DNA from: an uncultured Desulfobacteraceae bacterium
GTDB taxonomy: Bacteria > Desulfobacterota > Desulfobacteria > Desulfobacterales > UBA11574
Assembly (NCBI GenBank): GCA_964591175.1
Contig: CAZQAF010000005.1
Location: 18,256-82,255, forward strand
Reading direction: 5' to 3'
Length of the DNA stretch: 64,000 nt
Shown: one piece after another, positions 43,078 through 60,848 of the stretch
How positions within the stretch are numbered: position 1 is the stretch's first letter
How the letters are laid out: each line of letters opens with the position of its first letter
The notes under the pieces: model-generated
What the model was told of the DNA's origin: nothing
The model's input: only the letters and a program-made list of their open reading frames with translations
Database searches by the model: none
Made by a program: the position numbers and the translations under genes

Positions 43078-44997
43078 TTACCAAAGATTTGTATCTGGGA
43101 AATTCAGATGCTCGATAAAATGATCGGTAAATTCCGGATGGGTAGACAACTCAATATACGAGATTGACCGGGACAGATCAATGCTTTTCCGCCAGTAAGA
43201 TTTCGACAAAAGAACCATGGAAGCACCGGTGCTGGCGGCATTGCCCAAAGACTTGATTTTATCGGGGTCGACAGTGGGAATCATTCCGATGCGCATGGCG
43301 CTGTAGGGATTGATATAATTCCCGAGAGCGCCGGCTAAATATACACCATCGATATCTTTTATGCCGATTTGCATTTCTTTCATCAAAATCTCAATACCGG
43401 CAGCCACGGCACCTTTGGCAAGTTGCAGCTCTCTCACGTCTCTTTGGGTCAAACAAATATTTCGTCCGTTAAAGCTTTCCTCAGGCGAAGCCACCAGAAA
43501 ATTGCAAATGCCGTCTTTTTGAGTCACTTGCTTGCCAAGGGTGTTTTGAGTATCGGCCGGCGGATGACCGATCAATCCTTCATGATCGATGATCCCGCAG
43601 TGTAAAAGTACGGCGGTTAGATCGACCAGTCCGCTGCCGCATAAGCCTTTGGGTTTGATGTTGCCGATGGTTCGATATAATAAAGTCGCCTCTTCGGTAC
43701 GAACCCCTTCGATGGCGCCGGTTCTGGCGGTCATCCCGCTGGAAATACGCGCCCCCTCAAGGGCCGGTCCGGCGGCTGCCGAACAGGTAACAAGCCGGGT
43801 TCGATTCCCTAAAAACATTTCACCGTTCGTACCCAAATCCAATCCAAGAATCATTTGTTCTTCTTGTTCGGCAGCACCGGAAGCCATAATCATGCTGATA
43901 AGATCGCCCCCGATATATCCGGATTTCACCGGAATCACATATAGCAAGGCTTCAGGATTTAATTTGAGCCCAATGTCATCGGTTTTGATTACCAAACCGT
44001 CGGTGAATACCGGTGCAAAAGGGGCACCTGCAATGCTGCCGGGATCAATTTTTAAAAGGATATGCTGCATGGTGGTGTTGCCGGCAGCGACAACGATAAA
44101 GATATCCCGCTCTCTAAGTCCTACCACTTCCAGCAACCGTTCGGTAATACCGGTCAGGTCTTGTATCAGCAACTGATTGATCTTAGCGAGACCGCCTCGA
44201 TTGGATTTGATGTATTGTAAACGGCTGATGACGTCCGATCCGTATTTAACCTGGCTGTTTAAACGGGAAACCGCCGCCACTTCAACGCCGCTGTTCAGAT
44301 CGATCAATTTCCCGACCAGGGTGGTTGTTCCCAGATCAAATACCAGTCCGTACGCCTGCTCCAACTCATCCTTCCGTTGCCAGGCCATCAAGGTGTTATC
44401 GTGAAGCACCGCGGTACCGTGTTCACCGGTAGCCTCCAGTACCTTTGGAAGATTTCGCAGGCAGTGCAGGGAAGTGGTCATATTTTGATATTCCGCTCCC
44501 AGTATTAACTTAATCCGATCCAGATGTGAAATCCCAAGATCGCGATCTTCCGGCGGCAGCATAACCAGCCGTTTTTGGATCAGCGGATCGAAATAAATCA
44601 GCGGCCTTTCACCGGTTTTCAGAATCTGGTAATATTCCTGGTCAGGATCGATTGCTCCGATTTGGATTAAAACATCCGAATACAAAGGGGTACGGCAGGC
44701 GAGGCGAACGCCCTGCTTTATTTCCTGCTTGCTGAGCAGTTCCACCGCTGCTTTGGAAGGTGTTCCCAACGAGGACAGCACCTGAACCTTGCATTTTCCG
44801 CATTTTCCCATGCCGCCGCAATCGCTTTCGAGGTTGATGTCGTTTTTTTGAAGGGCTTCGTAAATTGTTTGGCCATAGGATGCTGTCAGCCAGAGATCAT
44901 CCGGGAGCACATTGAGTCTGACATATCGGCGTTTGTGTTTCTTGGGCGGTAAGGTGCCGATGCTGCGTTTATTCTTTTTGGGGGTCTTTTTTTTCAT
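43078..44997 (-). CDS. Corrinoid reductive activase (RACo/RamA-like; 2Fe-2S ferredoxin + ASKHA ATPase, DUF4445)
   Basis: Plant-type 2Fe-2S motif DCGGMGKCGKCKV...ACRT. ASKHA phosphate motifs VFDLGTTTLVGKL and GLDLGTNGEM. Start uncertain: ATG 44997 (MKKKTPKK) chosen, and the ORF track extends to 45072. Confidence 0.82.
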   Translation of the reverse strand: MKKKTPKKNKRSIGTLPPKKHKRRYVRLNVLPDDLWLTASYGQTIYEALQKNDINLESDCGGMGKCGKCKVQVLSSLGTPSKAAVELLSKQEIKQGVRLACRTPLYSDVLIQIGAIDPDQEYYQILKTGERPLIYFDPLIQKRLVMLPPEDRDLGISHLDRIKLILGAEYQNMTTSLHCLRNLPKVLEATGEHGTAVLHDNTLMAWQRKDELEQAYGLVFDLGTTTLVGKLIDLNSGVEVAAVSRLNSQVKYGSDVISRLQYIKSNRGGLAKINQLLIQDLTGITERLLEVVGLRERDIFIVVAAGNTTMQHILLKIDPGSIAGAPFAPVFTDGLVIKTDDIGLKLNPEALLYVIPVKSGYIGGDLISMIMASGAAEQEEQMILGLDLGTNGEMFLGNRTRLVTCSAAAGPALEGARISSGMTARTGAIEGVRTEEATLLYRTIGNIKPKGLCGSGLVDLTAVLLHCGIIDHEGLIGHPPADTQNTLGKQVTQKDGICNFLVASPEESFNGRNICLTQRDVRELQLAKGAVAAGIEILMKEMQIGIKDIDGVYLAGALGNYINPYSAMRIGMIPTVDPDKIKSLGNAASTGASMVLLSKSYWRKSIDLSRSISYIELSTHPEFTDHFIEHLNFPDTNLW

Positions 44998-45199
44998 GCA
45001 ATGAGTTCCGTTATTCGAGCGCATGGTTTCGCGCCCTCGGTTAAGGTCACGGGCATTTTGAGACCTTTGCAAAACGCCCCTTTTTGCCCAATTTCTACGT
45101 CAGGCTCAAATTTTAATCCTCAAAATACTCAATGTATTCCTGCGGTTAAAATTATCGCCTTCCTTGAACTTGAACAAAAATGAGCATTTTTCAAAGGTC

Positions 45200-45802
45200 T
45201 CATTTTATCAACGTATGAAGCAGTTTTGAAAAATGAGAATAATCGGCATCCTGAATATCCAAGGCCAGGTTTAAAAAATCTGCTATTTTATTCGCCTGTT
45301 CCGTTAATTCCGGATCATTGGGTTGACGAACATAGAGCAGACGCCGGTAGTGCTCAAAGTAGATCTTTCTCAAAACATTGTCGGCCAATTCCAGCGGTTC
45401 GGAACAGTAAGCATCAAAATTGAGCAATAATTCCTGTTCGACGAAAAACGTCCCCGTGATTTCCGTAAGGATAGATTCAAACAACAGATTCCCCAGCAAC
45501 ATTTCATAACAATTTTGGCCGGAAATCTTGGCGATGCCGTGTTGCCGGCAAAACGCGTCAATGCCGGTAAAACAATCACCGTAAACGATCAGGGGACGTT
45601 CTCCGCACCCGAGGGCTTCTTCAACGGCGTGTTGCAGCGCAATCTTCAGCATTTCGGGTTTCAAATGCAGGTTCGCGGGTAAATACGTGATCAAAACGTC
45701 CGGATATCTGGAATTCAGCCCAAGGTATTCGAATACGGGTTTAAACACCCCGCAAGCAATCAATCTTTTCGCATCAGCAATAATCGTTTGCAAGTGCTTC
45801 AT
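45200..45802 (-). CDS. DUF1638-like protein
   Basis: 200 aa. The ...LIVYGDCFTGIDAFC... block matches my recollection of DUF1638 proteins, which accompany MttB/corrinoid genes. Its ATG overlaps the stop of the upstream MttB gene (ATGA, 45799-45802). Confidence 0.65.
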   Translation of the reverse strand: MKHLQTIIADAKRLIACGVFKPVFEYLGLNSRYPDVLITYLPANLHLKPEMLKIALQHAVEEALGCGERPLIVYGDCFTGIDAFCRQHGIAKISGQNCYEMLLGNLLFESILTEITGTFFVEQELLLNFDAYCSEPLELADNVLRKIYFEHYRRLLYVRQPNDPELTEQANKIADFLNLALDIQDADYSHFSKLLHTLIK

Positions 45803-47235
45803 AGGCTGATAATCCCGGGGAATTTTTTCTTAATTTCAACGAGCAAATTTTGATCCAAAAGGCCTTCCTGCCCGTCTTGGAGAATCGTTTTTACACGGTC
45901 GTTGGCACGGCTCAGCATACTGGGTCGTTTCTGCTGCTCCCAGATATCAAAGTTGGAGCGGATCCCCAGGTTGGGGTAAAAAAATTCATCCATCATGTGC
46001 GTGACGGTGTGGTCTTCCAAAACAAAATTACCGCCGGGTCCGACTTTTTTAATGACATCAAAGGCGAGTGTATCCGGATCAATCTGGATGCCTCTAACCA
46101 TCCGCTGTACCATTCCGATGATTTCATCGTCAATCACATACTGTTCATAAGATATGGAATTGCCCGAATCGAGCATGCCGGCTGCCAAATGAATCAAGTC
46201 GGCGCCGTTTAGGGCGACCATTAAATTTGAAAAGGTTTTTTCACATCCCGCCTGGATGTCCGGTCTTTTGGCTTCGGTAACACCGCCCGATGCGTAAACA
46301 GGCAGATTAAAATGCTTTGCGATCTGGACGATCGAAGCATTCAGCAAGGCGGTTTCCGTTGATCCAAGCGTATACTCCATGTTGCGCAGATCTATGGTGG
46401 AGGGGACAGCGCCGTATAACACCTTTGCCCCCGGTGCGAAAGCCTGGGCCAAGGCAACGCCTGCCAGCGCTTCGGCATGGGTTTGGGCGAGGGTTCCCGC
46501 CAGCGTGGCAGGTGCTGTGGCACCTGAAATAGGGGCCGGTGCGCAGGTAGCCGGTATACCATGAAGGCAGCAGAACTTTAAAATACGCAGGGCTTCCGTG
46601 TCCATGGTCAGCGGACTGACGGAATTGGTGATAACGGAAACAAATGGTTTTGCTTTGAAATATTCTTCTCCTCCGGCCAAAAAACTTGCCAGGCTGAACA
46701 TCTGCTTGACGCCATCGAGGGTATCACATCCTCCCATGACGTGTTTAAAGGTATGGTTGAAAGCGTAGTAAAAGTCGTTCAAATGGTAGTTCTGAACATC
46801 CAAATCGTGAGCCTGGCATGAAATGATATACAGATCAATATGATCCAGCCGATCTACCAGGGCTGCCGTGTGGGCGACATCTCTGAGCATGGTCAGACGG
46901 TAGCCGCCGGTTGACATATCCAATATGCGAAACACCCGGCCGCCGTTTGAAAAATATACATTGCCGCTTCCAAGGTGGACGTCGTTGTTGCCGTTCCGGG
47001 AATACAGGGTAAAGTGTCGGGGGGCCAGGGCCAGGTATCGGTCCAGCCATTTTTTTTCAAAATAAACCCTGGATTTGCTCCGGTTTACACGGGCTCCGGC
47101 AGCCTCCAGGATGTCCCACATCTCCGGGTCGGAAATGCAAACGCCGATATGTTTGAGTATTCGTCGAGCGGTCTGGTCGATCGCTTTAATCTGTTTGGGT
47201 GACAGAAAACCGCCTGCTGAAGCGTTTGGTTGCAT
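45799..47235 (-). CDS. MttB-superfamily methyltransferase, non-pyrrolysine (paralogue 1)
   Basis: Start re-set to the ATG at 47235 behind GGAAGGAG. Uninterrupted 478 aa. Family blocks ...SPLTMDTEAL..., GGVTEAKRPDIQAG, LAFDVIKKVGPGGNF. Confidence 0.88.
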   Translation of the reverse strand: MQPNASAGGFLSPKQIKAIDQTARRILKHIGVCISDPEMWDILEAAGARVNRSKSRVYFEKKWLDRYLALAPRHFTLYSRNGNNDVHLGSGNVYFSNGGRVFRILDMSTGGYRLTMLRDVAHTAALVDRLDHIDLYIISCQAHDLDVQNYHLNDFYYAFNHTFKHVMGGCDTLDGVKQMFSLASFLAGGEEYFKAKPFVSVITNSVSPLTMDTEALRILKFCCLHGIPATCAPAPISGATAPATLAGTLAQTHAEALAGVALAQAFAPGAKVLYGAVPSTIDLRNMEYTLGSTETALLNASIVQIAKHFNLPVYASGGVTEAKRPDIQAGCEKTFSNLMVALNGADLIHLAAGMLDSGNSISYEQYVIDDEIIGMVQRMVRGIQIDPDTLAFDVIKKVGPGGNFVLEDHTVTHMMDEFFYPNLGIRSNFDIWEQQKRPSMLSRANDRVKTILQDGQEGLLDQNLLVEIKKKFPGIISL

Positions 47236-47307
47236 GGCAACTCCTTCCAAAGGTATTTCAGCGCCAATCGGAATAAAATTCTATTCTGCGAGAGAAGAGA
47301 ATCAAGA

Positions 47308-48747
47308 TCAACCGGAGGTTACAATGCCGTTTATTCTGCTTAACAGATCCTCGGATTTGGACGCAACCGTGTGTTCTGATAAAATGCGTTGGGTTTTTGC
47401 ATTGCAGCGTTGATACAGATCATTGGCACCGTCATTTATCCAGGCGTCATATCGAGATCGATCCAACAGGTTCGGAAGAAAGAGAGAGTGCATAAAATTC
47501 TCAAAGGTATGGTCATCCATCAAAAAAATAGAACCGGGCCCGCCGCAGGCAACCCGTTCGATGGCATCAATGGCCAATGTATTGTCATTGACGGGTATGC
47601 CGCCGGTGAAAAATCGGCTCATGGCGATCAGCTCATCGGCCATGGTGACCATTTCCAGAGAAGATGTGTACCCGTATTCCAAAAAACCGACATCGTGAAT
47701 CAGGTTCGCTCTGGAAAGCAGGGCGGTAATAATCGAAAACATGGCCTCGGCGCCTGCCTGGGCATCCATTGTCTTGGCGTCCGAGGCGCCTGCAAAGGCC
47801 CAAATCGGCAGTCCGTAAATTTCGTCGCGCATATCGGCAAGGGCCGCCTGGGTAAGACTCCATTCGGGACTACCGTAACAAACGATGCTCGACTTCATGT
47901 CCATGGCGCTGACATTCGGTCCGAATAAAAACGGGGATCCTTTTCCCGCCATTTGATGCACCACCAGTCCCACAAGATTTTCGGCAATTCCCAGCGCCAA
48001 CGCCCCGGCCAGCGTGACCGGTGCACCACCGCCGGCGTTTGAGCCCGAAGGAAAACAGATCGGGATTTGTTTCTGGGCGCAAAAAATTAATTTTTCCATC
48101 ACATTTTCAGGAAAGCGCAGCGGGCTGATGGCTTCGGAATAGTTTAAGATAAACGGTTTTCTTTGAAAGTTGTCTTCACCACCGGCCACCGCACAGGCAA
48201 TCTCATAGATTTTAGCAATATCTTTGCCGCTGTCGGCGATGAAAACAATGGGTTTGCCGGTCTGTTTAACCATTTCGGCAAAAACATGCACATATATCGA
48301 TTCCACGGGCACATCTTCCGGATTGGCCATGGACATGGCAAAGTCGATATTTTTCAGTCCGTCCACCAGTTTGGCGAAATTGGTGACATCAGCCAATACG
48401 GTTCGTCGGCGCTGACCGGTTTTCAGGTCAAGTGTAAACGTGGCATCGGATCCGGTACCATAAAAAGCCTGTTCGTCTCTCAGCGACATGGCTTTTTCCC
48501 CGGTCTGGTCAAACAGGGTGATCTGTCGGGGAGCGGAGCGAATAGCGTCTTCGGCCATAAAAGCGGGCATCCGGATCCTTCCGTCGCTGGCGACCCGACA
48601 ACCGGCATCGGAAAGCATTTCCATGGCGCCGGCATGTTCCATTTTAAATCCGGTTTTTTCAAGAATTTCCAGGGCAGCCGTATGGATGGCCATGGCCTGT
48701 TCGCGGTTCAAGACCTTCAGTCGAGGTTGAAACGTGGGAATTTCCAT
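47308..48747 (-). CDS. MttB-superfamily methyltransferase, non-pyrrolysine (paralogue 2)
   Basis: Start re-set to the ATG at 48747 behind AAGGAGGA, which removes the overlap with the corrinoid gene. Uninterrupted 479 aa. Blocks AGASDAKTMDAQAG and LAIDAIERVACGGPGSIF. Confidence 0.88.
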   Translation of the reverse strand: MEIPTFQPRLKVLNREQAMAIHTAALEILEKTGFKMEHAGAMEMLSDAGCRVASDGRIRMPAFMAEDAIRSAPRQITLFDQTGEKAMSLRDEQAFYGTGSDATFTLDLKTGQRRRTVLADVTNFAKLVDGLKNIDFAMSMANPEDVPVESIYVHVFAEMVKQTGKPIVFIADSGKDIAKIYEIACAVAGGEDNFQRKPFILNYSEAISPLRFPENVMEKLIFCAQKQIPICFPSGSNAGGGAPVTLAGALALGIAENLVGLVVHQMAGKGSPFLFGPNVSAMDMKSSIVCYGSPEWSLTQAALADMRDEIYGLPIWAFAGASDAKTMDAQAGAEAMFSIITALLSRANLIHDVGFLEYGYTSSLEMVTMADELIAMSRFFTGGIPVNDNTLAIDAIERVACGGPGSIFLMDDHTFENFMHSLFLPNLLDRSRYDAWINDGANDLYQRCNAKTQRILSEHTVASKSEDLLSRINGIVTSG

Positions 48748-48787: not shown

Positions 48788-49426
48788 TCAGCTCGTGCCG
48801 ACCAGTTTTTTGGCCTCAATTACGGCTGAACCCGCATCAGGGGCATACACATCGGCCTTGATATCCTCGGCAAACTTTGAGGTTACCGGTGCGCCGCCGA
48901 TCATGACTCTGACCGTGTTTCTGATTTTGGCGCGCTGCAACGCCTCAATGGTTTCTTTCATGCTCGGCATGGTGGTAGACAGCAATGCCGACATCGCCAC
49001 GATATCCGGTTCTATCTCCTGCGCCTTTTTCACAAACTGGTCTGCCGAAACATCCACGCCCAAATCAGTGATGGCAAATCCGGCCCCTTCCAGCATCATG
49101 GCAACCAGATTTTTACCGATATCATGAAGGTCGCGGTGAACCGTCCCGATTAAAACTTTACCTTTGGGGACAAGATCACCTTCCAGAAAAAAAGGTTTCA
49201 GCAGTTTCATGCATTCCTGCATGGCCTTGGCCGAACGCAGCATCTGGGGAACAAACAATGCACCCTTTGCGAATTTTTCGCCGACCTCGTCCATTGCAGC
49301 GATCAGGCCGTCATTTAGAATACTTTTAACCTTGAGACCGTCATCAATGGCCTTTTGGGTTTGAGCAACGGCACCTTCAACATTCCCTTTATTTATATCC
49401 TGTTTCAAATTGTCTATAATGGTCAT
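48788..49426 (-). CDS. Corrinoid (B12-binding) methyl-carrier protein 1
   Basis: 212 aa. B12-binding motif GTVHRDLHDIGKNLV (DxHxxG), plus MSALLSTTM and IGGAP. Confidence 0.9.
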   Translation of the reverse strand: MTIIDNLKQDINKGNVEGAVAQTQKAIDDGLKVKSILNDGLIAAMDEVGEKFAKGALFVPQMLRSAKAMQECMKLLKPFFLEGDLVPKGKVLIGTVHRDLHDIGKNLVAMMLEGAGFAITDLGVDVSADQFVKKAQEIEPDIVAMSALLSTTMPSMKETIEALQRAKIRNTVRVMIGGAPVTSKFAEDIKADVYAPDAGSAVIEAKKLVGTS

Positions 49427-50829: not shown

Positions 50830-51165
50830 TCACCGTGTAACAGAAAACAAATTGTTTTCCCAAAAGCCAATGAGAGCCAAGTCTGTCGGATGCGTACCGA
50901 AATAAGAACCTTCAGGAGAAATATCTTCGAGAATATCAAAGATCTCTTGAAAGAGGATTTCTTTTTTGCGCTTATAAGTCTTATCGGTATTCTCCAGCTT
51001 TTCAATTTGATGTATTTTTTGTTCCACTTCGATTAGCTTTTCGGAAGTCTCTTGATCGAGGGCGATTGAGTGCAAAAAAGCAAGGCAGTCTTCGATCAGA
51101 TCGACAACGTTAAGGGTTGTGTTTTGACTGATCGTATAGATTCTGTATTCACTTCCCAGTTTCAT
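50830..51165 (-). CDS. Hypothetical 111-aa acidic protein
   Basis: ATG behind AGAGGA. No recognisable motif. Sits within the co-directional gene string. Confidence 0.5.
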   Translation of the reverse strand: MKLGSEYRIYTISQNTTLNVVDLIEDCLAFLHSIALDQETSEKLIEVEQKIHQIEKLENTDKTYKRKKEILFQEIFDILEDISPEGSYFGTHPTDLALIGFWENNLFSVTR

Positions 51166-55525: not shown

Positions 55526-55545
55526 CGGGGTTTTTATTTTTAAAA

Positions 55546-56229
55546 TCAGGCACTCAGCGTTTTTAATGCATCGATGGCCTCGAAGGCATCTTTGCAATGG
55601 GCATCGGCACCGATCTGTTCGGCAAAGGATTTGGATGTGGGAGCGCCTCCGATGAAGACGGTCACCTGATGATCGAGCCCTTCTGTTTTAAGGGTATTGA
55701 TCACCTCCTTCATTTCCCACATGGTGGTTGTCAACAGGGCCGAGAGCCCCAGGAAAGATGCCTGGTTTTCTTTAACAGCCTGTACAATTGCGCTGGTCGG
55801 CACATCCGCTCCCAGGTCGATAACCTCGTATCCGGCACCTTTGATCATGATCGATACGATGTTCTTCCCGATATCGTGAAGGTCGCCGGCCACCGTTGCA
55901 ATAATGAACTTTCCTTTACTTTTTACGCCGGCTTTTAAAAGGTGAGGGCTCATGATGTCCATGGCAACCCCGACACATTCGGCCGAGGCCAGCATGTCCG
56001 GGATGAGGTATTCATCGCGCTCAAATTTTTTGCCCACAATCTCCATTGCGCGGGTTAATCCGTCGATGACGATGTCTTTGGGGTCTATGCCGGCACCAAG
56101 GGCTTCTTTGACCAGCTCGGTGACTGCAGGCTGTCCTTCGTAACCTTCGTCAAACCCTTCATCTTCAGCCTCGACACGACCTTGCACAATATTAAATGCA
56201 ATTTTCTCAATAAGCGTTTGATTGTCCAT
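55546..56229 (-). CDS. Corrinoid (B12-binding) methyl-carrier protein 2
   Basis: 227 aa. ATVAGDLHDIGKNIV (DxHxxG), LSALLTTTM and IGGAP. Confidence 0.9.
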   Translation of the reverse strand: MDNQTLIEKIAFNIVQGRVEAEDEGFDEGYEGQPAVTELVKEALGAGIDPKDIVIDGLTRAMEIVGKKFERDEYLIPDMLASAECVGVAMDIMSPHLLKAGVKSKGKFIIATVAGDLHDIGKNIVSIMIKGAGYEVIDLGADVPTSAIVQAVKENQASFLGLSALLTTTMWEMKEVINTLKTEGLDHQVTVFIGGAPTSKSFAEQIGADAHCKDAFEAIDALKTLSA

Positions 56230-56273: not shown

Positions 56274-57812
56274 TCATCCGGTCTGTTTCAAGCTCGGCAA
56301 AATTCCCGGGACTTCCTTGAAAATTTGTTCCACTATTTCGGGTTTCATGTGCACGGCCGGCGCTTGTTCGAGTCGGTCCATGTAATCGAGAGCGTTTTCC
56401 AGGACTTTGTCTTCCAATCCTTTGGCCTCAAAACGATAAGGATCGGAAACATCTCCGGCGTGCATGGCCTTTCGCACATGGCGCGCATATAGCCGGTAGG
56501 GCGAGGACATGACTTTTTTCACCGTCTTGAGTGTATCTTCTATGGTGTCGGGATCGATTTTAGGCTGACGCAGGCAGTGTTTGATCTTGCCGATCTGTTC
56601 GTTGTCCAGAACCGCTTGGACCGGGCAGAAACTGTTGGTGCGATCCAAAAGGCCAAAGGCATAGTGGATATACTGCGCCCCGCTCATGGCCATGTAAAAA
56701 TGCGTAAACAGTTTTTCGAATGTGGCCTGCATCCCCGGTGCTTTGGCATCCCCCACGCCGGCGGTGGAATAACACGGGATATTGTAAAAACGGGCCAATT
56801 GCACACAATCGATATTATACTGATTGAACTCCGGACATCCGTATAAATCGTGCAGATCATCCATGCGGGCCCGCACGGGTACGCTCCCATAGAGTACCGG
56901 AAATCCCGGTTCGATGAGCTGGGTGAGGGTGATACCGGCTAAAATTTCAGCATTGATCTGAGCCACCATTCCGGCTTCTTGTATGGGAGCCGACGATCCC
57001 CCCTGGGGAGACGAAGAGATCACCAGGGGAAGGCCGGTTTCGACGATGCGAAAAACCTTCTCGGCGGTATCATCCACGATTTGTAAAGGGCTTTTGAATA
57101 TACAGGCGATGAATGAAAACAGCGGATTTTTCCGGAGCGCCTCCGGGCTGCCGGTAATGATCTCACCCATTCGCACGACATCTTTTAAAGCATCTACCGT
57201 GGTCAATCCCGCTTGCACGTGTTTGGTCATATTGTTCAGGCTGGCAAAAAACTTGTTCACATCATGATTGGCGGGGCTGATTTCAGGATCCTGTATGTTC
57301 AACGGGCGGATGAAAAAGTCCAGGTGTTCTAATCTTTCGCACAGCCTGGCGGCCCGGCTGAGCAAAGATGTATTCCCCCGCAGCTCTTCAAATCGGGGAA
57401 CCTTGCATTTGACGCCGTTGTCGTCAACGCTCACAAATTCCTGCATATGCGTTTCTATCCAGATATTGGCCTCGGAACCGGAGCCAAAATAAACGCGGGG
57501 CACTTCCGCGTCGAGCAGCAATCGATTTTCAGGAACCCTGGCGCCCAGAACAAATCGTGAAGGGGCGTGAGACACTGCTTCTTTGATGAGTCCTGCGGGG
57601 AAGCTGACCCGCCAACATGTGCTATGTTTGTCTTTTTCTTCCCAAACTTTGGCCCCATGTGTTTTAAAAAGCCCGGCAGCTCTTTCGTTGTAACACCAGA
57701 CGCCGGGATCTTCCAAAATGTTCAGGGAAGCTCGATCCAGCCATTTTACCTGTTCGCTGTCGAGCCGCTTATAAGGTTTGACCAGAACGCCTTCTCGAAA
57801 ACTGTCTATCAC
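56274..57812 (-). CDS. MttB-superfamily methyltransferase, non-pyrrolysine (paralogue 3)
   Basis: Uninterrupted 512 aa. Blocks AGVGDAKAPGMQAT and the N-terminal ...EQVKWLDRASLNILEDPGV. Confidence 0.88.
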   Translation of the reverse strand: MIDSFREGVLVKPYKRLDSEQVKWLDRASLNILEDPGVWCYNERAAGLFKTHGAKVWEEKDKHSTCWRVSFPAGLIKEAVSHAPSRFVLGARVPENRLLLDAEVPRVYFGSGSEANIWIETHMQEFVSVDDNGVKCKVPRFEELRGNTSLLSRAARLCERLEHLDFFIRPLNIQDPEISPANHDVNKFFASLNNMTKHVQAGLTTVDALKDVVRMGEIITGSPEALRKNPLFSFIACIFKSPLQIVDDTAEKVFRIVETGLPLVISSSPQGGSSAPIQEAGMVAQINAEILAGITLTQLIEPGFPVLYGSVPVRARMDDLHDLYGCPEFNQYNIDCVQLARFYNIPCYSTAGVGDAKAPGMQATFEKLFTHFYMAMSGAQYIHYAFGLLDRTNSFCPVQAVLDNEQIGKIKHCLRQPKIDPDTIEDTLKTVKKVMSSPYRLYARHVRKAMHAGDVSDPYRFEAKGLEDKVLENALDYMDRLEQAPAVHMKPEIVEQIFKEVPGILPSLKQTG

Positions 57813-57846: not shown

Positions 57847-58644
57847 TTATTTTTGCCGAAACGTCCGGGTATAGCGCCGGCAGTGACGATCTTTTCCTGC
57901 CAGGACCTCGGCGGTTCTCACAGCCCCTATAATCTGTTGATCCAGCGGATCCATGATGGCTGCATCCAAACCTGCAAAAATCGCCATATGCAAAAATGCC
58001 GAATTGAGCCCGGCCCTGTTCGGAAGCCCGTAAGAAACATTGGAAAGCCCCATGACCGTCCGTGCACCGGAAAAGTTTTCCTTGATTTGTGTCAGCGTGT
58101 CCAAGGTGACGCGCCCCTGCCGGATGTCTGTACTGACCGGCAGCACCAGGGGGTCGAAAAAAAGGTTGTCCAGCGAGAATCCGTGTTTTTGACAGGCTTT
58201 GGCGATCTTTTCGCAGGCTGACAGACGGTCTTTGACGGTTTTGGGTATTCCTTGCTCGTCCATGGCCAGGGCAATTAATGCCGTGTTATGGTGAACGGCA
58301 AGGGGGATGATCTTTTTTAGATTGTCTTCTTCTGCTTTGACGGAATTGATCATGGCGGATCTATCGCCGTTCATATCCAATGCCGTTTCCAGTACAGCCC
58401 GGTCGGCGCTGTCAAAACAAAGGGGAGCGTCCACCGATCTTTGAATGGTTTCAACAGCCCATTTCATGGCTGAAATTTCATCTTCCCTGGATCCCACGCC
58501 TATAGCAACGTTGACATCGATATAGTCAGCCCCGGCATTGGCTTGCTTTTGGGCCAGTGCCGTCAGATTTCGGGCGTCTCTGTTTTGAATCATGGTGTTA
58601 ACCAAAGGGATGGTGGCATTGATTTTTTCACCGACGATAATCAT
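57847..58644 (-). CDS. Methylcorrinoid:tetrahydrofolate methyltransferase (pterin-binding) 2
   Basis: Start re-set to the ATG at 58644 (MIIVGEKINATIP) behind AAGGAAA. YIDVNVA and GLSNVSYGLP. Confidence 0.85.
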   Translation of the reverse strand: MIIVGEKINATIPLVNTMIQNRDARNLTALAQKQANAGADYIDVNVAIGVGSREDEISAMKWAVETIQRSVDAPLCFDSADRAVLETALDMNGDRSAMINSVKAEEDNLKKIIPLAVHHNTALIALAMDEQGIPKTVKDRLSACEKIAKACQKHGFSLDNLFFDPLVLPVSTDIRQGRVTLDTLTQIKENFSGARTVMGLSNVSYGLPNRAGLNSAFLHMAIFAGLDAAIMDPLDQQIIGAVRTAEVLAGKDRHCRRYTRTFRQK

Positions 58645-58666
58645 GGATTTCCTTTTTCTACGCTTA

Positions 58667-60130
58667 TTACTCAAAAATGAATGATTGGACTCCCGGGATC
58701 TCTTGTTTAATGCGTTCCCTGACATCTTCAGGAACAATCGATTGGGGCGGTTTTGTCAAAATGTCCCGCACTTTTTCGGCGGCTCGCTGACGAATATCTT
58801 TTGCGCCGTCCTCCTGCCAGCGATCACGGTTTTCCCTGTCGCTGAGCAGTGGTTTATAAAGTTCCGAACGCATATGACGTCGGGTATGGCGGGAGGAGAT
58901 AAAATGCCCGCCGGGTCCTGCTTTTTTTATCAGATCAAATGCCAGGGTCTCGTCGTTCACCTTGATGCCGTCTACCGCCCGCATGATCATGCCGATAATT
59001 TCGTTGTCTATGACCAGCTTGTCATAGGACGCCGTCATGCAGAATTCCAAAAATCCTGCAGCATCATGGATGAAGTTACCGCCGGCCAGGGCAACCATCA
59101 GATTGGTAATGGCCGATTCATATCCTGCCTGGGCATCGTTGACTTTGGCGTCGGACATGCCCGCGGTGACATAGATCGGCAATTTATAAAATCGGGCCAT
59201 CTGGGATGCGGCGGCGTTCATCAATCCCATTTCAACCGCGCCCGAAAGATATTTCATATTTCGCAGATCGGTAATGGACGAAATACAGCCATAAAGGGTC
59301 GGGGTTCCGGGGCTGGTCATTTGAGCCAGCATAACGCCCGCCAAAGAATCCACATTCTGTATCACCAGATTCCCTGCCAGCGTCATGGGACTGGTGGCCC
59401 CGCACAGCGGTTCCGAGGGCACCACTACCGGAATTCGATGTCTGGCCGCTTCCATGGTGAGCCCGGCATAGGTCTCGTCCAGTGTCAGGGGACTGATAAC
59501 GCAGGTGACCATGGAAATAAACGGTCGCTCCCTGAGCTTATCTGGAGATCCGGCAATGAGTTCCGCCATTTTAATCACGTTTCGCACCCCTTCAGGGGTG
59601 TAAACGCCACCGATCACGTGTTTTCGGGTATGATTCAGGGCTGCGCCAAAACGATTGACATCCACATCTTTTTTGGAGAGATCATTGGGATACACGTTGA
59701 GCATGTAAAAGTGGATGTTGTCCAGTACATCCACCAGACGAGCCATATCGACGATGTCTTCGAGTATTGAACTTCGCGCATCTTGGCTTCCTGACTCCTG
59801 TACGTTCAAAGCCGTGCCGCCGGTTCCGAAATATACTTTATTTCCGCCGATTTCACAGTCCAGATCTCCGTTTTCTTCACGACCGCAGAGAAATACCGTA
59901 GAAGGCGCCTTCTGTATCCACTTTGTCACCATTTCCGGCGGGATTTTGACCACCCGGTCGGATTTATCGACGCTTGCGCCGTTTTTTTCAAAAAGTGCCA
60001 GCGCTTCCGGAAATTTTACCCTCACGCCCACTTCGGCGAATACCTTGAGACTGGTTTCATGAATCTTAACCATGTCCTTTTCTGAGATGACTTTATATTG
60101 TCCTCCGGGTAAACCTTTTCTTGTTTTCAT
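58667..60130 (-). CDS. MttB-superfamily methyltransferase, non-pyrrolysine (paralogue 4)
   Basis: Uninterrupted 487 aa. Blocks AGMSDAKVNDAQAG and LAFDLIKKAGPGGHF. By eye, most similar to paralogue 1. Confidence 0.88.
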   Translation of the reverse strand: MKTRKGLPGGQYKVISEKDMVKIHETSLKVFAEVGVRVKFPEALALFEKNGASVDKSDRVVKIPPEMVTKWIQKAPSTVFLCGREENGDLDCEIGGNKVYFGTGGTALNVQESGSQDARSSILEDIVDMARLVDVLDNIHFYMLNVYPNDLSKKDVDVNRFGAALNHTRKHVIGGVYTPEGVRNVIKMAELIAGSPDKLRERPFISMVTCVISPLTLDETYAGLTMEAARHRIPVVVPSEPLCGATSPMTLAGNLVIQNVDSLAGVMLAQMTSPGTPTLYGCISSITDLRNMKYLSGAVEMGLMNAAASQMARFYKLPIYVTAGMSDAKVNDAQAGYESAITNLMVALAGGNFIHDAAGFLEFCMTASYDKLVIDNEIIGMIMRAVDGIKVNDETLAFDLIKKAGPGGHFISSRHTRRHMRSELYKPLLSDRENRDRWQEDGAKDIRQRAAEKVRDILTKPPQSIVPEDVRERIKQEIPGVQSFIFE

Positions 60131-60176
60131 TTTTTCTCACTTTTTATAATTAATGCTGGGAACGATGTTTAAAATT

Positions 60177-60848
60177 CTATGTTCTTCGTGCAGAACAATT
60201 CCGGCGGTTGCATTCAGAACATGGATTATATGATTGTTCCCTTGGGTTAGAATCAGCCGGTGTTATTCCGAAAACACCGGAGATGGATTTACGGGGCTTC
60301 ATAAAGCAGGAATTTGTGAGTTCGACCTCCAACTCGTTTGAATCGAAGAGACCGAACAATTTTTTTTGATCGGTAATCGGCCAGTCGCAATATCCAGGGC
60401 TAAAACAAAGCGTTATTTGTTTGTTTTGGTCTTTATATACATCCTTCATATGCTGATGAAACATTCCCACCATGTTGTCTGCGGCCGCAGATGCCATGGC
60501 ATCGAGGATATATGCTTGCGCCAAGTGCTTTTCTTCCATAAGCTGATTGATCTTGTCTTCAATGCTGTCTCCCAATGTGGCGATATAACATGTAATTTCA
60601 TCACAATGCTTTAACGTTCTTGAAAGTTTGTTGCTTTTAAATTCCTGACCTTCTTCAAGGAGAACTTCCCCTTTTTCCACCGAATCGATCCCCATGTTTC
60701 GGTGGCACAGATTCGGTTCGATAAGTTTTTCAAACATGGGTTTCATTCGTTTTATTTTCGAGCGGGTTGACCGGGGAATAGTATCAAATTCGTCACCGCC
60801 CAAAAGTTTGGCCAGGGTATCCTTTTCTATAATTGGTTTAATTTCCAT
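60177..60848 (-). CDS. Methionine synthase (MetH) activation-domain-like protein
   Basis: 223 aa. FSPGYCDWPITDQKKLF ... MKPRKSISGVFGI resembles the SAM-binding reactivation domain of MetH. Cys-rich C-terminus CSECNRRNC. Confidence 0.7.
   Translation of the reverse strand: MEIKPIIEKDTLAKLLGGDEFDTIPRSTRSKIKRMKPMFEKLIEPNLCHRNMGIDSVEKGEVLLEEGQEFKSNKLSRTLKHCDEITCYIATLGDSIEDKINQLMEEKHLAQAYILDAMASAAADNMVGMFHQHMKDVYKDQNKQITLCFSPGYCDWPITDQKKLFGLFDSNELEVELTNSCFMKPRKSISGVFGITPADSNPREQSYNPCSECNRRNCSARRT

What the first reader, a model, noticed from the sequence alone, without database searches (positions are those of the whole stretch)
43078..60848. 18-kb single-strand supercluster with four diverged non-pyrrolysine MttB paralogues: a multi-substrate methylated-amine demethylation island
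Seen: 17 consecutive minus-strand genes. Module B (60848-55546) holds a MetH-activation-like protein, MttB-4, a pterin methyltransferase, MttB-3 and a corrinoid protein. Module A (50270-43078) holds a pterin methyltransferase, a corrinoid protein, MttB-2, MttB-1, a DUF1638 protein and a RACo-type activase. All four MttB ORFs (478-512 aa) are uninterrupted, with no in-frame TAG, so they are non-Pyl members. By eye, MttB-1 and MttB-4 share long blocks (e.g. LAFD(V/L)IKK(V/A)GPGG), while MttB-2 and MttB-3 align only in patches. A betaine-type ABC importer and a MarR regulator sit at the upstream end. Established: each non-Pyl MttB characterised so far demethylates a different quaternary amine. 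Examples are glycine betaine (MtgB), proline betaine (MtpB), carnitine (MtcB) and gamma-butyrobetaine (MtyB). The methyl group passes via a corrinoid protein to tetrahydrofolate. Inference: up to four distinct substrates feed methyl groups into C1 metabolism. The substrates cannot be read from sequence, and some may be new.
Basis: partly seen in the sequence, partly recalled or inferred. Interest (0 to 1): 0.7.

Follow-up and report, generated by a model that had tools for sequence, protein, structure and literature searches.

The report
Conserved methylamine demethylation island, sulfate reducers
A sediment sulfate-reducing bacterium carries a widely conserved gene island with four very different vitamin-B12-linked enzymes that strip methyl groups from methylated nitrogen compounds. 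The island also holds an importer and an uncharacterised methylating/amidating enzyme pair, and none of the four enzymes matches a known substrate type.

Summary
Four uninterrupted, TAG-free MttB-family genes (25-38% identical to each other) sit in two corrinoid methyl-transfer modules on the minus strand. A MarR gene and a divergent quaternary-amine ABC importer lie upstream.

The four are not redundant copies: each belongs to its own orthologue group across Desulfobacterota, with its own invariant pocket residues. None has the glycine-betaine motif of MtgB, nor the arginine reported as conserved in every characterised non-pyrrolysine member. All have Tyr or Trp there, as pyrrolysine MttB does.

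- The island is a conserved unit. MarR-MetHact-MttB4-pterin MT-MttB3-corrinoid protein-420-aa SAM methyltransferase-AsnB-like recurs in about 60-80 loci, and module A follows within 10 kb in 14.
- The "spacer" genes belong to it. Elsewhere the 420-aa methyltransferase is fused to asparagine synthase and sits beside the same importer type without any MttB.
- The neighbourhoods are repeatedly osmoadaptive.

Best reading: methyl groups from imported, or possibly self-made, N-methylated compounds pass to tetrahydrofolate. The substrates are unknown and probably non-acidic.

It is a new variant of a known kind, of moderate to high interest.

The parts
61642..62385 (+). ABC transporter ATPase of the ProV subfamily. 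At 247 aa it is short and has no C-terminal CBS region.
   Evidence: PF00005. TIGR01186 proV scores 313 bits and aligns to positions 4-230 of 363. Conserved next to the island in 25 loci.
62399..63991 (+). Fused permease and substrate-binding protein of an OpuB/OpuC/OpuF-type quaternary-amine ABC importer.
   Evidence: BPD_transp_1 plus OpuAC. The binding domain best matches OpuBC-derived sensors (257 bits), OpuCC 3ppn (221), OpuBC 3r6u (211) and EgtUC (181).
61008..61499 (-). MarR-family regulator, placed between the importer and module B.
   Evidence: PF01047 E 6e-17. Conserved at this position in 33 or more loci.
60177..60848 (-). Stand-alone MetH-type AdoMet-binding activation-domain protein (MetHact), with a conserved set of four Cys.
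   Evidence: PF02965. AF2 pLDDT 84.6 and Foldseek hit 1j6r at E 1.8e-11. Conserved motifs are FSPGYCDW, PRKSISGVFG and PCxxCxxxxC.
58667..60130 (-). MttB4, a non-Pyl MttB-family methyltransferase and the one closest to genuine pyrrolysine MttB.
   Evidence: PF06253 E 5e-110. TIGR02369 scores 493 bits against a cut-off of 525. It is 37% identical to M. barkeri MttB. Met (ATG) sits at the Pyl position, with Tyr at the MtgB-R312 position, His at Mb-Y364, Glu at Mb-M249 and Asp at MtgB-H348.
57847..58644 (-). Pterin-binding (methyl-THF:corrinoid) methyltransferase of module B.
   Evidence: PF00809. NF005719 scores 297 bits against a cut-off of 259. The start is set by the 265-aa call in L081.
56274..57812 (-). 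MttB3, the most divergent MttB paralogue and the most conserved across taxa.
   Evidence: PF06253 E 6e-54. Orthologues at 68-96% identity in 80 loci. Long branch in the tree. Val at the Pyl position and Tyr at the R312 position.
55546..56229 (-). Corrinoid protein of module B (B12-binding cap plus Rossmann domain, DLHDIGKN His-on motif).
   Evidence: PF02607 plus PF02310. Best NCBIfam match is MtgC-type at 209 bits. Conservation shown.
54169..55431 (-). 420-aa class I SAM-dependent methyltransferase of unknown substrate (MTase420).
   Evidence: Only a generic Methyltransf_25 hit, with no NCBIfam or PDB assignment. Sits next to the module B corrinoid protein in 67 loci. The family is small, 298 representatives. 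Fused to AsnB in P0393 and P0400.
52648..54147 (-). Asparagine synthase B (AsnB1), with an intact MCG glutaminase nucleophile.
   Evidence: NF006949 scores 586 bits against a cut-off of 499. It is 43-45% identical to the AsnB half of the AsnB-MTase420 fusions.
51423..52592 (-). S-adenosylmethionine synthetase MetK.
   Evidence: TIGR01034 scores 597 bits. MetK also lies in the cluster in L021, L023, L034, L074 and L081.
51180..51356 (-). Remnant (59 codons of the C-terminus) of the conserved AsnB-like gene AsnB2.
   Evidence: tblastn gives 59-69% identity to residues 426-485 of AsnB2. The 96.6%-identical relative L081 has the intact 512-aa gene. The window lacks L081 16407-17760 and 17938-18123.
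50830..51165 (-). 111-aa ORF with no family assignment.
   Evidence: No Pfam hit. The same gene is called in L081.
50319..50798 (-). Double-SH3 protein, probably not part of the pathway.
   Evidence: SH3_3/SH3_4. Present only in close relatives.
49473..50270 (-). Pterin-binding methyltransferase of module A.
   Evidence: PF00809. NF005719 scores 328 bits against a cut-off of 259.
48788..49426 (-). Corrinoid protein of module A (DLHDIGKN).
   Evidence: PF02607 plus PF02310. MtgC-type, 208 bits.
47308..48747 (-). MttB2, a non-Pyl MttB paralogue. It groups nearest to MtgB and the S. meliloti protein 4yyc but lacks their Arg.
   Evidence: PF06253 E 4e-87. Trp at the R312 position and Ala at the Pyl position, invariant in 11 sequences. 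Tree.
45799..47250 (-). MttB1, a non-Pyl MttB paralogue that groups with MttB4.
   Evidence: PF06253 E 4e-110. Tyr at the R312 position and Val at the Pyl position.
45200..45802 (-). DUF1638 protein, a partner of RamA/RACo-type activases. Its start overlaps the MttB1 stop.
   Evidence: PF07796 E 1e-25. Genetic link to B12 reactivation in PMC5764234 and PMC12478193.
43078..45072 (-). RACo/AcsV-type ATP-dependent reductive activase of corrinoid proteins, with an N-terminal 2Fe-2S domain.
   Evidence: RACo_C_ter, Raco_middle, RACo_linker and Fer2. NF040756 scores 420 bits.

Best explanation
The region is a conserved Desulfobacterota gene island that moves methyl groups from N-methylated compounds to tetrahydrofolate through protein-bound cobalamin.

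**Shown:**
- There are two modules. Each has two different non-pyrrolysine MttB-family methyltransferases, one MtgC/MttC-type corrinoid protein and one MeTr/MtgA-type pterin-binding methyltransferase.
- Module A carries a RACo-type ATP-dependent activase and DUF1638.
- Module B carries a MetH-type AdoMet-binding activation-domain protein.
- A MarR regulator and an OpuB/C/F-type quaternary-amine ABC importer sit upstream.
- A 420-aa SAM methyltransferase, asparagine synthase and MetK are embedded in the island and conserved with it.

**Inferred mechanism:**
1. The importer brings in a methylated ammonium compound.
2. Each MttB presents one methyl donor to Co(I) on its module's corrinoid protein.
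3. The pterin enzyme passes the methyl group to THF.
4. The methyl-THF enters the methyl branch of the Wood-Ljungdahl pathway of this complete-oxidising sulfate reducer.
5. Oxidised Co(II) is rescued by ATP-driven reduction in module A, and by SAM-dependent reductive methylation in module B.

**Inferred about substrates:**
- The four MttBs have different substrates, or handle successive demethylation states of one compound.
- These are not the known acidic betaines. More likely they are cationic or non-acidic methylated amines.
- The AsnB plus 420-aa methyltransferase pair makes or modifies an N-methylated, amide-bearing solute that belongs to the same metabolism. What that solute is remains unknown.
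For: **Domains.** Both corrinoid proteins carry the DxHxxG motif and score best against MtgC/MttC-type models, not MetH. The MetH activation fold of MetHact is confirmed.

**Distinct MttB groups.** The four paralogues form four separate clades and are only 26-37% identical to MtgB or M. barkeri MttB. Each group has invariant, group-specific residues at the MtgB Y97/R312/H348/F356 positions and at the M. barkeri G110/T111/M249/Pyl334/Y364 positions, with n = 12, 11, 81 and 67 sequences. R312 is reported as conserved in all functionally known non-Pyl members (PMC13080624). Here it is Tyr, Trp, Tyr and Tyr. MttB4 has Glu and Asp in the pocket.

**Synteny.** MarR-MetHact-MttB4-pterin MT-MttB3-corrinoid protein-MTase420-AsnB-like recurs across 80 loci from Desulfobacterales, Syntrophobacterales, Desulfomonilaceae, Desulfobacca and others. 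Module A lies within 10 kb in 14 of them.

**Importer.** It is of the choline/carnitine/betaine-binding OpuBC/OpuCC class.

**Operon structure.** Gaps from MetHact to MetK are at most 114 bp, and predicted terminators do not exceed chance.

**Precedents.** Quaternary amine:THF systems are described in PMC12155760 and PMC13080624. RamA plus DUF1638 recharging, and a shared corrinoid protein with a bidirectional pterin methyltransferase, are described in PMC12478193 and PMC5764234.
Against: - No substrate, expression or activity data exist for any of these proteins.
- The cluster also occurs in lineages thought to have narrow substrate ranges or obligate syntrophy (Desulfobacca, Seep-SRB2, Eth-SRB1 MAGs). 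That fits a housekeeping or osmotic role better than scavenging of exotic amines.
- The conserved SAM methyltransferase, AsnB and MetK (with SAH hydrolase in L021 and L023) have no role in a purely catabolic scheme.
- The direction of methyl flow is not determined by sequence.
- Absence of R312 does not prove that acidic substrates are excluded, because another basic residue could take its place.
- I could not include the E. limosum MtpB, MtcB, MtyB and MthB sequences in a tree.
Confidence: 0.55

Rival explanations
1. Osmolyte life-cycle island. AsnB plus the 420-aa SAM methyltransferase, supplied by MetK, synthesise an undescribed N-methylated, amide-containing compatible solute. The Opu-type importer recaptures it or takes it up. 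The MttB/corrinoid modules demethylate it on osmotic downshift or for carbon and energy, returning the methyl groups to THF.
For: - AsnB-MTase420 fusion proteins exist (P0393, P0400).
- These fusions, and MTase420 homologues, sit beside the same short ATPase plus fused permease-OpuAC importer even where no MttB is present.
- Another homologue is fused to a universal stress protein, and another lies beside BON, aldehyde dehydrogenase and a GCS2 carboxylate-amine ligase.
- The island's neighbours are repeatedly osmoadaptive: sucrose-phosphate synthase/phosphatase and sucrose synthase in the window, MscS and TrkH in L023, AblA/AblB in L067, MscS in L081, and a CLC channel in L070.
- MetK and SAH hydrolase lie in the cluster in L021 and L023.
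Against: - No such solute is known.
- MTase420 has no resemblance to GSMT/SDMT beyond the generic fold.
- The cluster also occurs in freshwater and wetland lineages.
- An SBP-dependent importer is not needed for synthesis.
- The osmoadaptive neighbours are individual examples, not a statistical test.
Confidence: 0.22
2. Biosynthetic, MetH-like direction. The pterin enzyme loads the corrinoid protein from methyl-THF. One or more MttB-like barrels then methylate an acceptor (homocysteine or an amine), serving the SAM cycle encoded next door.
For: - Module B contains three of the four MetH modules as separate proteins: the pterin domain, the cap plus B12 domain, and the AdoMet activation domain.
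- MetK, and in some loci SAH hydrolase, are adjacent.
- In Ruegeria, one corrinoid protein and one bidirectional pterin methyltransferase serve both methionine synthesis and betaine demethylation (PMC12478193).
Against: - No PF02574 homocysteine-binding protein lies in the window or the fetched loci.
- Every characterised MttB-family protein is a methyl-donor-specific methyltransferase.
- The corrinoid proteins are MtgC/MttC-like, not MetH-like.
- Seep-SRB lineages are reported to have methionine synthase (PMC10553843).
Confidence: 0.08
3. Simple redundancy. The four MttBs are isoenzymes for one known substrate, such as glycine betaine.
For: - Marine Desulfobacterium strains are known, from my own recollection of the older physiological literature, to demethylate betaine.
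- The corrinoid proteins score best against MtgC models.
- The importer is betaine-type.
Against: - Pairwise identity is only 25-38%.
- The four form separate ancient orthologue groups.
- All four MtgB substrate-binding residues are missing in all four groups, and the replacements are group-specific and invariant.
Confidence: 0.05

Closest known systems
Quaternary amine:THF methyltransferase systems of anaerobic Firmicutes (D. hafniense MtgB/MtgC/MtgA; E. limosum MtpB, MtcB, MtyB and MthB with MtqC/MtqA or MthC/MthA and RamQ)
   Same: Same three-component logic. A non-Pyl MttB-superfamily TIM-barrel methyltransferase, a His-on corrinoid protein, a pterin-binding methyltransferase that makes methyl-THF, and a reductive activase. 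All are linked to a Wood-Ljungdahl organism.
   Different: - Only 26-33% identical to MtgB.
- The acid-binding Arg (R312), conserved in all characterised members, is replaced by Tyr or Trp, and the betaine motif is absent.
- Two MttBs share each corrinoid protein and pterin methyltransferase.
- Module B uses a MetH-type activation protein instead of a RamA/RACo enzyme.
- A SAM methyltransferase and AsnB-type enzymes are conserved inside the cluster.
Pyrrolysine-dependent trimethylamine methyltransferase MttB/MttC of methanogens (PDB 7xcl)
   Same: - Same fold.
- MttB4 is 37% identical to it and scores 493 bits on the TIGR02369 equivalog model.
- MttB4 keeps the Gly-Thr pair (Mb G110-T111) and the Tyr at the MtgB-R312 position.
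- Its DNA downstream of the Pyl codon even matches the Rfam PYLIS_3 model (64 bits).
   Different: - No UAG: the codon is AUG (Met), and Val or Ala in the other paralogues.
- The catalytic Tyr364 is His in all four.
- Scores fall below the family cut-off of 525.
- The methyl acceptor is THF through a pterin enzyme, not coenzyme M.
Ruegeria/Phaeobacter MtgBCDE split methionine synthase and glycine betaine demethylase, with RamA and DUF1638
   Same: - An MttB-family demethylase uses a stand-alone corrinoid protein and a stand-alone pterin methyltransferase.
- A RamA/RACo-like activase is paired with DUF1638.
- There is a physical or functional link to the methionine/SAM cycle.
   Different: - No homocysteine-binding MtgE (PF02574) is present here.
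- The corrinoid proteins here are MtgC/MttC-like, whereas the Ruegeria corrinoid protein (also called MtgC) groups with CmuA and is distinct from the D. hafniense type.
- The host is an anaerobic sulfate reducer.
- The Ruegeria MttB homologues belong to the Arg-containing clade, inferred from the Arg in the S. meliloti homologue 4yyc.
Cobalamin-dependent methionine synthase MetH (activation domain)
   Same: The 223-aa protein at 60177-60848 has the AdoMet-binding activation-domain fold. It keeps the PGY part of the RxxxGY motif.
   Different: - It is a stand-alone protein.
- The Arg of RxxxGY is not kept (the motif reads FSPGY).
- It has an extra conserved four-Cys set (C154, then C-x2-C-x4-C at the C-terminus).
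- It is encoded with MttB-type rather than homocysteine-type partners.

Membership tests
MttB superfamily (PF06253/COG5598), non-pyrrolysine branch | Full-length match to the MttB TIM-barrel family | tested here: met
   PF06253 E 4e-110, 4e-87, 6e-54 and 5e-110. PDB hits are MtgB 2qne/9yce and MttB 7xcl.
MttB superfamily (PF06253/COG5598), non-pyrrolysine branch | No in-frame UAG at the position of Pyl334 | tested here: met
   The codons are GTT, GCC, GTG and ATG, and no in-frame TAG occurs anywhere in the four ORFs.
Quaternary amine:THF methyltransferase system (MtgBCA / MtqCA type) | Cognate corrinoid protein with cap domain, B12-binding domain and DxHxxG | tested here: met
   PF02607 plus PF02310 in both corrinoid proteins. 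The DLHDIGKN motif is present.
Quaternary amine:THF methyltransferase system (MtgBCA / MtqCA type) | Pterin-binding methyltransferase | tested here: met
   PF00809. NF005719 scores 328 and 297 bits against a cut-off of 259.
Quaternary amine:THF methyltransferase system (MtgBCA / MtqCA type) | RamA/RamQ/RACo-type ATP-dependent reductive activase | tested here: met
   Present once, at the end of module A (43078-45072). Module B has a MetH-type activation protein instead.
Quaternary amine:THF methyltransferase system (MtgBCA / MtqCA type) | Arg equivalent to MtgB R312, which binds the acidic group of the substrate and is conserved in MtgB, MtpB, MtcB, MtyB and MthB (PMC13080624) | tested here: not met
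   Tyr, Trp, Tyr and Tyr in MttB1-4, invariant in 12, 11, 81 and 67 sequences.
Quaternary amine:THF methyltransferase system (MtgBCA / MtqCA type) | Methylation of Co(I)-corrinoid protein by a quaternary amine, then methylation of THF | not testable with these tools
   Needs enzyme assays.
MtgB glycine betaine methyltransferase | Substrate motif Y97, R312, H348, F356 | tested here: not met
   The residues at these positions are G/Y/L/G, S/W/-/G, S/Y/Y/T and G/Y/D/C in MttB1-4. Identity to MtgB is 26-33%.
Pyrrolysine trimethylamine methyltransferase MttB (TIGR02369) | Score at or above the equivalog cut-off of 525 bits | tested here: not met
   406, 373, 239 and 493 bits.
Pyrrolysine trimethylamine methyltransferase MttB (TIGR02369) | Pyl334 and Tyr364 (PMC9842639) | tested here: not met
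   Pyl is replaced by Val, Ala, Val and Met. Tyr364 is replaced by His in all four groups. Gly110-Thr111 is kept in MttB2 and MttB4.
Split methionine synthase / MtgBCDE (Ruegeria type) | Homocysteine-binding subunit (PF02574) | tested here: not met
   No such domain in any ORF scanned in the window or in the neighbouring loci. The rest of the genome could not be searched.
Split methionine synthase / MtgBCDE (Ruegeria type) | RamA-like activase together with DUF1638 | tested here: met
   RACo 43078-45072 and DUF1638 45200-45802 are adjacent.
MetH activation (AdoMet-binding) domain, PF02965 | Fold and family match | tested here: met
   PF02965 scores 33.9 bits against a cut-off of 25. Foldseek hit 1j6r at E 1.8e-11, followed by 18 further MetH reactivation-domain hits.
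MetH activation (AdoMet-binding) domain, PF02965 | RxxxGY AdoMet motif (recalled from memory for E. coli MetH) | tested here: inconclusive
   The invariant sequence is FSPGYCDW. The GY is kept and the Arg is not. The motif definition was not checked against a source.
Glycine/sarcosine/dimethylglycine N-methyltransferases (betaine synthesis) | Specific sequence or structural similarity of the 420-aa methyltransferase | tested here: not met
   - Only a generic class I methyltransferase signal.
- Best PDB profile hits are juvenile-hormone acid methyltransferases at E about 1e-3.
- The AF2 model is poor (pLDDT 54), and its Foldseek matches have TM of about 0.2.

The most novel reading that the evidence does not exclude
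The island encodes the whole life cycle of an undescribed N-methylated, amide-bearing solute of sediment Desulfobacterota.
- **Synthesis:** an AsnB plus 420-aa SAM methyltransferase pair, which is fused into one protein in other lineages.
- **Uptake:** an OpuB/C/F-type importer.
- **Breakdown:** stepwise cobalamin-dependent demethylation by four MttB-family enzymes that have replaced the acid-binding Arg with aromatic and acidic residues.

This would define new non-acidic substrate classes for the MttB superfamily, possibly including demethylation beyond the first methyl group without pyrrolysine.
Probability: 0.2. Interest if true: 0.8.

Novelty: new variant of a known kind. Interest (0 to 1): 0.6.

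Why it matters
- **Open question in the field.** Most of the very large MttB superfamily has no known substrate, and each characterised member so far has revealed a new route of methylated-amine turnover.
- **Ecological relevance.** These four orthologue groups are conserved across complete-oxidising sulfate reducers and syntrophs of marine and wetland sediments, including partners of methane- and ethane-oxidising archaea. If they demethylate choline-type or other non-acidic methylated amines, sulfate reducers would compete directly for compounds usually treated as 'non-competitive' methanogenic substrates. That affects sediment methane budgets.
- **Enzymology.** The Arg-to-Tyr/Trp change and the invariant His at the Tyr364 position give a concrete sequence signature for a new specificity class.
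- **A second unknown.** The link between AsnB, the 420-aa methyltransferase and the importer points to an unrecognised solute.
- **Testability.** Two cultured hosts make this testable: Desulfoferrobacter suflitae DRH4 and Desulfatitalea alkaliphila M08but.

Tried and rejected
1. **Assigning the 420-aa methyltransferase.** Pfam, NCBIfam, PDB phmmer and a profile search gave only generic hits. The AF2 model from 21 close homologues was poor (pLDDT 54). Its Foldseek matches were non-specific, with TM of about 0.2. The function stays unassigned.
2. **Functional pyrrolysine insertion element.** Rfam PYLIS_3 hits MttB4 at 64 bits and starts exactly at the Pyl-equivalent codon. The model has almost no base pairs, the codon is AUG, and weaker hits fall at the same register in MttB1 and MttB2. 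This is coding-sequence homology and not a functional element. I rejected it as evidence of Pyl use. No tRNA genes occur in the window.
3. **Riboswitches.** No cobalamin, SAM, THF or glycine riboswitch at E up to 1 in 40000-64000.
4. **Promoter and terminator scans.** Counts did not exceed shuffled controls. An inverted-repeat search around MarR found nothing convincing.
5. **Phylogeny with E. limosum MtpB, MtcB, MtyB and MthB.** Their sequences could not be obtained. I used the published R312 signature as a surrogate.
6. **Literature on this cluster.** Eight searches, plus look-ups inside two Desulfobacteraceae and syntrophic-SRB genomics papers, found no description of it. A proposal that MttB feeds HgcA for mercury methylation (PMC12484752) rests on docking only, and nothing here supports it.
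7. **Corrinoid protein-methyltransferase fusion (P0414).** It lies in a decayed locus with MttB fragments, so it does not count as a real fusion.
8. **Chloromethane dehalogenase CdmB as an MttB relative.** It is not one.

Full report

Yes. ORF listing and profile searches give the following minus-strand series.

| Coordinates | Gene |
|---|---|
| 43078-45072 | RACo/AcsV-type activase |
| 45200-45802 | DUF1638 |
| 45799-47250 | MttB1 |
| 47308-48747 | MttB2 |
| 48788-49426 | corrinoid protein A (CorA) |
| 49473-50270 | pterin methyltransferase A |
| 50319-50798 | SH3 protein |
| 50830-51165 | 111-aa ORF |
| 51423-52592 | MetK |
| 52648-54147 | asparagine synthase B (AsnB1) |
| 54169-55431 | 420-aa class I SAM methyltransferase (MTase420) |
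| 55546-56229 | corrinoid protein B (CorB) |
| 56274-57812 | MttB3 |
| 57847-58644 | pterin methyltransferase B |
| 58667-60130 | MttB4 |
| 60177-60848 | MetH-activation-like protein (MetHact) |
| 61008-61499 | MarR |

A ProV-type ATPase (61642-62385) and a fused permease/OpuAC protein (62399-63991) are transcribed divergently on the + strand.

- The four MttB ORFs have no in-frame TAG. The codons at the pyrrolysine position are GTT, GCC, GTG and ATG.
- They are 25-38% identical to each other.
- The MetH-like assignment, weak in Pfam (34 bits), was confirmed by structure. The AF2 model has pLDDT 84.6, and the top Foldseek hit is the T. maritima MetH AdoMet-binding domain 1j6r (E 1.8e-11), followed only by other MetH reactivation domains.
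- The gene count is 16 intact ORFs plus one remnant, not 17 genes. The same-strand run continues down to 36826 through fructokinase, sucrose-phosphate synthase/phosphatase and sucrose synthase.

**2. Where does it come from, and is it conserved?**

A genome scan with MttB3 returned 80 loci, nearly all from Desulfobacterota MAGs. They include Desulfobacterales, Syntrophobacterales, Desulfomonilaceae, Desulfobacca, Seep-SRB2 and Eth-SRB1, plus two cultured species: Desulfoferrobacter suflitae DRH4 and Desulfatitalea alkaliphila M08but. MttB3 identity is 68-96%.

- Mapping the window's proteins onto these loci shows a strikingly constant order: MarR, MetHact, MttB4, pterin MT, MttB3, CorB, MTase420, then an AsnB-like gene.
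- Clustering of all ORFs counts MttB3 in 79 loci, CorB in about 70, MTase420 in 67, the module B pterin methyltransferase in about 67, MttB4 in about 65, MetHact in 58 and the AsnB-like gene in 54. Contig ends limit these counts.
- Module A genes lie within the 10-kb flank in 14 loci.
- The 'supercluster' is therefore an evolutionary unit, not a chance juxtaposition, and the genes between the two modules belong to it.
- The tightest core is MttB3-CorB-MTase420-AsnB-like. L006 has it without MttB4, the pterin methyltransferase or MetHact, and L022 keeps only a C-terminal stub of MttB4.

**3. The four MttB paralogues.**

Each has its own orthologue group: 59-69% identity for MttB1, 70-78% for MttB2, 68-96% for MttB3, and mostly 63-97% for MttB4.

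In a neighbour-joining tree they form four separate clades. MttB1 and MttB4 lie next to M. barkeri Pyl-MttB. MttB2 lies next to MtgB and the S. meliloti protein 4yyc. MttB3 sits on a long branch. Identity to MtgB is 26-33%, and to M. barkeri MttB 27-37%.

Picking et al. 2026 (PMC13080624) showed by mutagenesis and a ligand-bound structure that MtgB binds glycine betaine with Y97, R312, H348 and F356. They state that R312 is conserved in all non-Pyl members of known function, all of which use acidic quaternary amines. I rebuilt the PDB sequences from the printed alignments, aligned them with all orthologues, and read off the key positions.

| Position | MttB1 | MttB2 | MttB3 | MttB4 |
|---|---|---|---|---|
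| MtgB Y97 | Gly | Ser | Ser | Gly |
| MtgB R312 | Tyr | Trp | Tyr | Tyr |
| MtgB H348 | Leu | gap | Tyr | Asp |
| MtgB F356 | Gly | Gly | Thr | Cys |
| M. barkeri Pyl334 | Val | Ala | Val | Met |
| M. barkeri Tyr364 | His | His | His | His |
| M. barkeri Met249 | Ala | Gly | Ser | Glu |

- These residues are essentially invariant within each group (n = 12, 11, 81 and 67).
- Pyl-MttB itself has Tyr at the R312 position.
- The catalytic Tyr364 is described in PMC9842639.
- MttB2 and MttB4 keep the Gly110-Thr111 pair.

Three conclusions follow. The paralogues are not redundant. None is an MtgB. By the only published specificity signature, none belongs to the acidic-betaine class. MttB4, with Glu and Asp in the pocket and the strongest resemblance to true MttB (493 bits on TIGR02369 against a cut-off of 525), looks suited to a purely cationic or hydroxylated amine. 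This last step is inference.

**4. The PYLIS hit.**

Rfam's PYLIS_3 model matches 59059-59158 (minus strand) at 64 bits, above the gathering score of 38, and starts exactly at the Pyl-equivalent codon of MttB4. Weaker in-register hits occur in MttB1 (28 bits) and MttB2 (21 bits).

The model has almost no base pairs and the codon is AUG. I read this as nucleotide-level homology to real mttB genes, not as a recoding element.

**5. Reactivation.**

- Module A ends with DUF1638 and a RACo-type activase carrying a 2Fe-2S domain. Fitness genetics in Phaeobacter, and proteomics in Ruegeria, link DUF1638 and a RamA-like protein to recharging of B12 (PMC5764234; PMC12478193).
- Module B has no such enzyme of its own. 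It starts instead with the MetH-type AdoMet-binding protein, whose orthologues keep FSPGYCDW, PRKSISGVFG and a C-terminal C-x2-C-x4-C.
- I infer SAM-dependent reductive methylation for CorB, as in MetH. This is untested.

**6. The embedded genes.**

*MTase420.* It has only a generic Methyltransf_25 hit, with no NCBIfam or PDB assignment. An exhaustive search finds only 298 cluster representatives among 1.84 billion proteins, so the family is small and specialised.

- Two of these representatives, P0393 (934 aa) and P0400 (901 aa), are fusions of a complete asparagine synthase B with an MTase420-like domain. The GATase and synthetase domains are both present, and P0393 keeps the MCG nucleophile.
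- Both fusion genes sit beside a short (about 254 aa) ABC ATPase and a fused permease-OpuAC protein of about 510-520 aa. This is the importer architecture of the window, and no MttB gene is in sight.
- Other homologues show related contexts:
  - P0362 is followed by AsnB.
  - P0364 is followed by the ABC ATPase.
  - P0370 is preceded by BON, aldehyde dehydrogenase and a GCS2 carboxylate-amine ligase.
  - P0422 is fused to a universal stress protein.
  - P0365 sits in a full Opu-MarR-MetHact-MttB-pterin MT-MttB-corrinoid protein-methyltransferase array at only 46% identity.

*AsnB.* The window's AsnB passes NCBI's asparagine synthase B equivalog cut-off (586 against 499) and is 43-45% identical to the AsnB half of the fusions.

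*AsnB2.* The AsnB-like gene conserved in 54 loci is a different paralogue. Its N-terminal catalytic Cys is replaced by Ser, Ala or Gly.
- In the window it survives only as a 59-codon remnant at 51180-51356.
- A relative that is 96.6% identical over window 51407-64000 (L081, a 306-kb contig) has the intact 512-aa gene between MetK and the 111-aa ORF.

*SAM cycle.* MetK is in the cluster in several loci. In D. suflitae (L023), and judging by its orthologue in L021, SAH hydrolase follows it.

**7. Neighbourhood.**

The island repeatedly lies among osmoadaptation genes.
- Sucrose synthesis genes in the window.
- An MscS-type channel and TrkH in L023.
- Lysine 2,3-aminomutase plus a GNAT acetyltransferase (N-acetyl-beta-lysine synthesis) in Eth-SRB1 L067, and a CLC channel in L070.
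- An MscS-type channel in L081.

The importer's binding domain is closest to OpuBC/OpuCC-type choline, carnitine and betaine binders, ahead of EgtUC and ProX. Its ATPase lacks the CBS region of osmoregulated ProV/OpuAA proteins. These are individual examples and not a statistical test.

**8. How it most likely works.**

*Shown:* the island has all the parts of two MttB-type methyl donor to corrinoid to THF relays, an importer for quaternary ammonium compounds, a regulator, and two different corrinoid-rescue devices.

*Inferred:*
- Imported N-methylated compounds are demethylated, and the methyl-THF is oxidised or assimilated through the Wood-Ljungdahl pathway.
- The four MttBs handle different donors, either different compounds or successive demethylation states. 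Two MttBs share each corrinoid protein and pterin methyltransferase, and all four travel together.
- The donors are non-acidic.
- AsnB and MTase420 act on the same metabolite pool.

I give this 0.55.

*Rivals:*
- Osmolyte life cycle, in which AsnB and MTase420 make a methylated amide solute that the MttB modules later demethylate (0.22). It differs mainly in where the substrate comes from.
- A MetH-like biosynthetic direction (0.08). It is weakened by the absence of any homocysteine-binding domain and by the MtgC/MttC-like nature of the corrinoid proteins.
- Simple redundancy (0.05). It is contradicted.

**9. Comparison with what is known.**

- It works like the Firmicute quaternary amine:THF systems, and like the Ruegeria MtgBCD system with RamA and DUF1638.
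- It fails the tested defining features of MtgB (substrate motif), of the characterised acidic-amine enzymes (R312) and of Pyl-MttB (Pyl, Tyr364, score cut-off).
- I found no paper that describes this cluster. [quoted passage not shown]

**10. Verdict.**

- Multiple uncharacterised MttB paralogues in an anaerobe are not surprising in themselves.
- Four things make this a new variant of a known kind that is worth experimental follow-up:
  - its conservation as a unit across sediment sulfate reducers and syntrophs
  - the consistent loss of the acid-binding Arg
  - the paired-MttB architecture with two reactivation modes
  - the fusion-supported link to an unassigned methyltransferase/asparagine-synthase pair and an Opu-type importer
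- Interest is 0.6.

**Limits.**
- No expression or biochemical data are available.
- The E. limosum enzymes could not be placed in the tree.
- The rest of the genome could not be searched for metH, pyl or PF02574 genes.

Noticed in passing
window 51180-51356 (minus strand): A 59-codon remnant of an AsnB-like gene whose orthologues have Ser, Ala or Gly in place of the catalytic Cys. A 96.6%-identical relative (L081 16468-18006) has the intact 512-aa gene. The window lacks about 1.35 kb and 0.19 kb relative to it, so the loss is strain-specific and recent.
   Followed up: yes
window 59059-59158, 46182-46281 and 47688-47784 (minus strand): Rfam PYLIS_3 ('pyrrolysine insertion sequence mttB') matches at 64, 28 and 21 bits. 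Each starts at the codon that aligns with pyrrolysine, although these codons are ATG, GTT and GCC. This looks like coding homology to real mttB genes and not a recoding signal.
   Followed up: yes
window 36826-42333 (minus strand): Directly downstream on the same strand lie sucrose synthase (803 aa), a fused sucrose-phosphate synthase/phosphatase (733 aa) and a PfkB fructokinase. Together they are a compatible-solute (sucrose) set in a sulfate reducer.
   Followed up: partly
P0393 and P0400 (other organisms; loci L082, L083): Single proteins of 901-934 aa that fuse asparagine synthase B to an MTase420-like methyltransferase. They are encoded beside a short ABC ATPase and a fused permease-OpuAC importer, with no MttB genes nearby.
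   Followed up: yes
L067 15491-17640 (Eth-SRB1): Lysine 2,3-aminomutase plus a GNAT acetyltransferase (N-acetyl-beta-lysine osmolyte genes) directly follow the AsnB-like gene of the island.
   Followed up: partly
L022 8665-9147; L090 5723-7756: Signs of decay of the island in other lineages. In L022, MttB4 is reduced to a 160-aa C-terminal stub. In L090, MttB fragments flank a chimeric ORF made of the corrinoid-protein C-terminus joined to a methyltransferase N-terminus, next to SAH hydrolase.
   Followed up: partly
window 56274-57812 (MttB3 residues 316 and 318): The D-x-(R/K) pair conserved in MtgB, Pyl-MttB and the other three paralogues is inverted to R-x-D in all 81 MttB3 sequences. This is an apparent charge swap.
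   Followed up: no
window 42394-42963 and 50830-51165 (minus strand): Two ORFs (189 aa and 111 aa) with no Pfam or NCBIfam match lie inside the same-strand run. The 111-aa ORF is also called as a gene in the relative L081.
   Followed up: no
window 30030-33050 (+ strand): A 1006-aa DEAD-box helicase with an MrfA Zn-binding domain and a C-terminal RNase H-like domain. It is unrelated to the finding.
   Followed up: no
window 5-19408 (+ strand): Housekeeping and surface genes: SecA, a ClpA/B-type ATPase, and a secretin/T2SSE/T2SSF pilus-type secretion cluster followed by a 908-aa laminin-G-domain protein.
   Followed up: no
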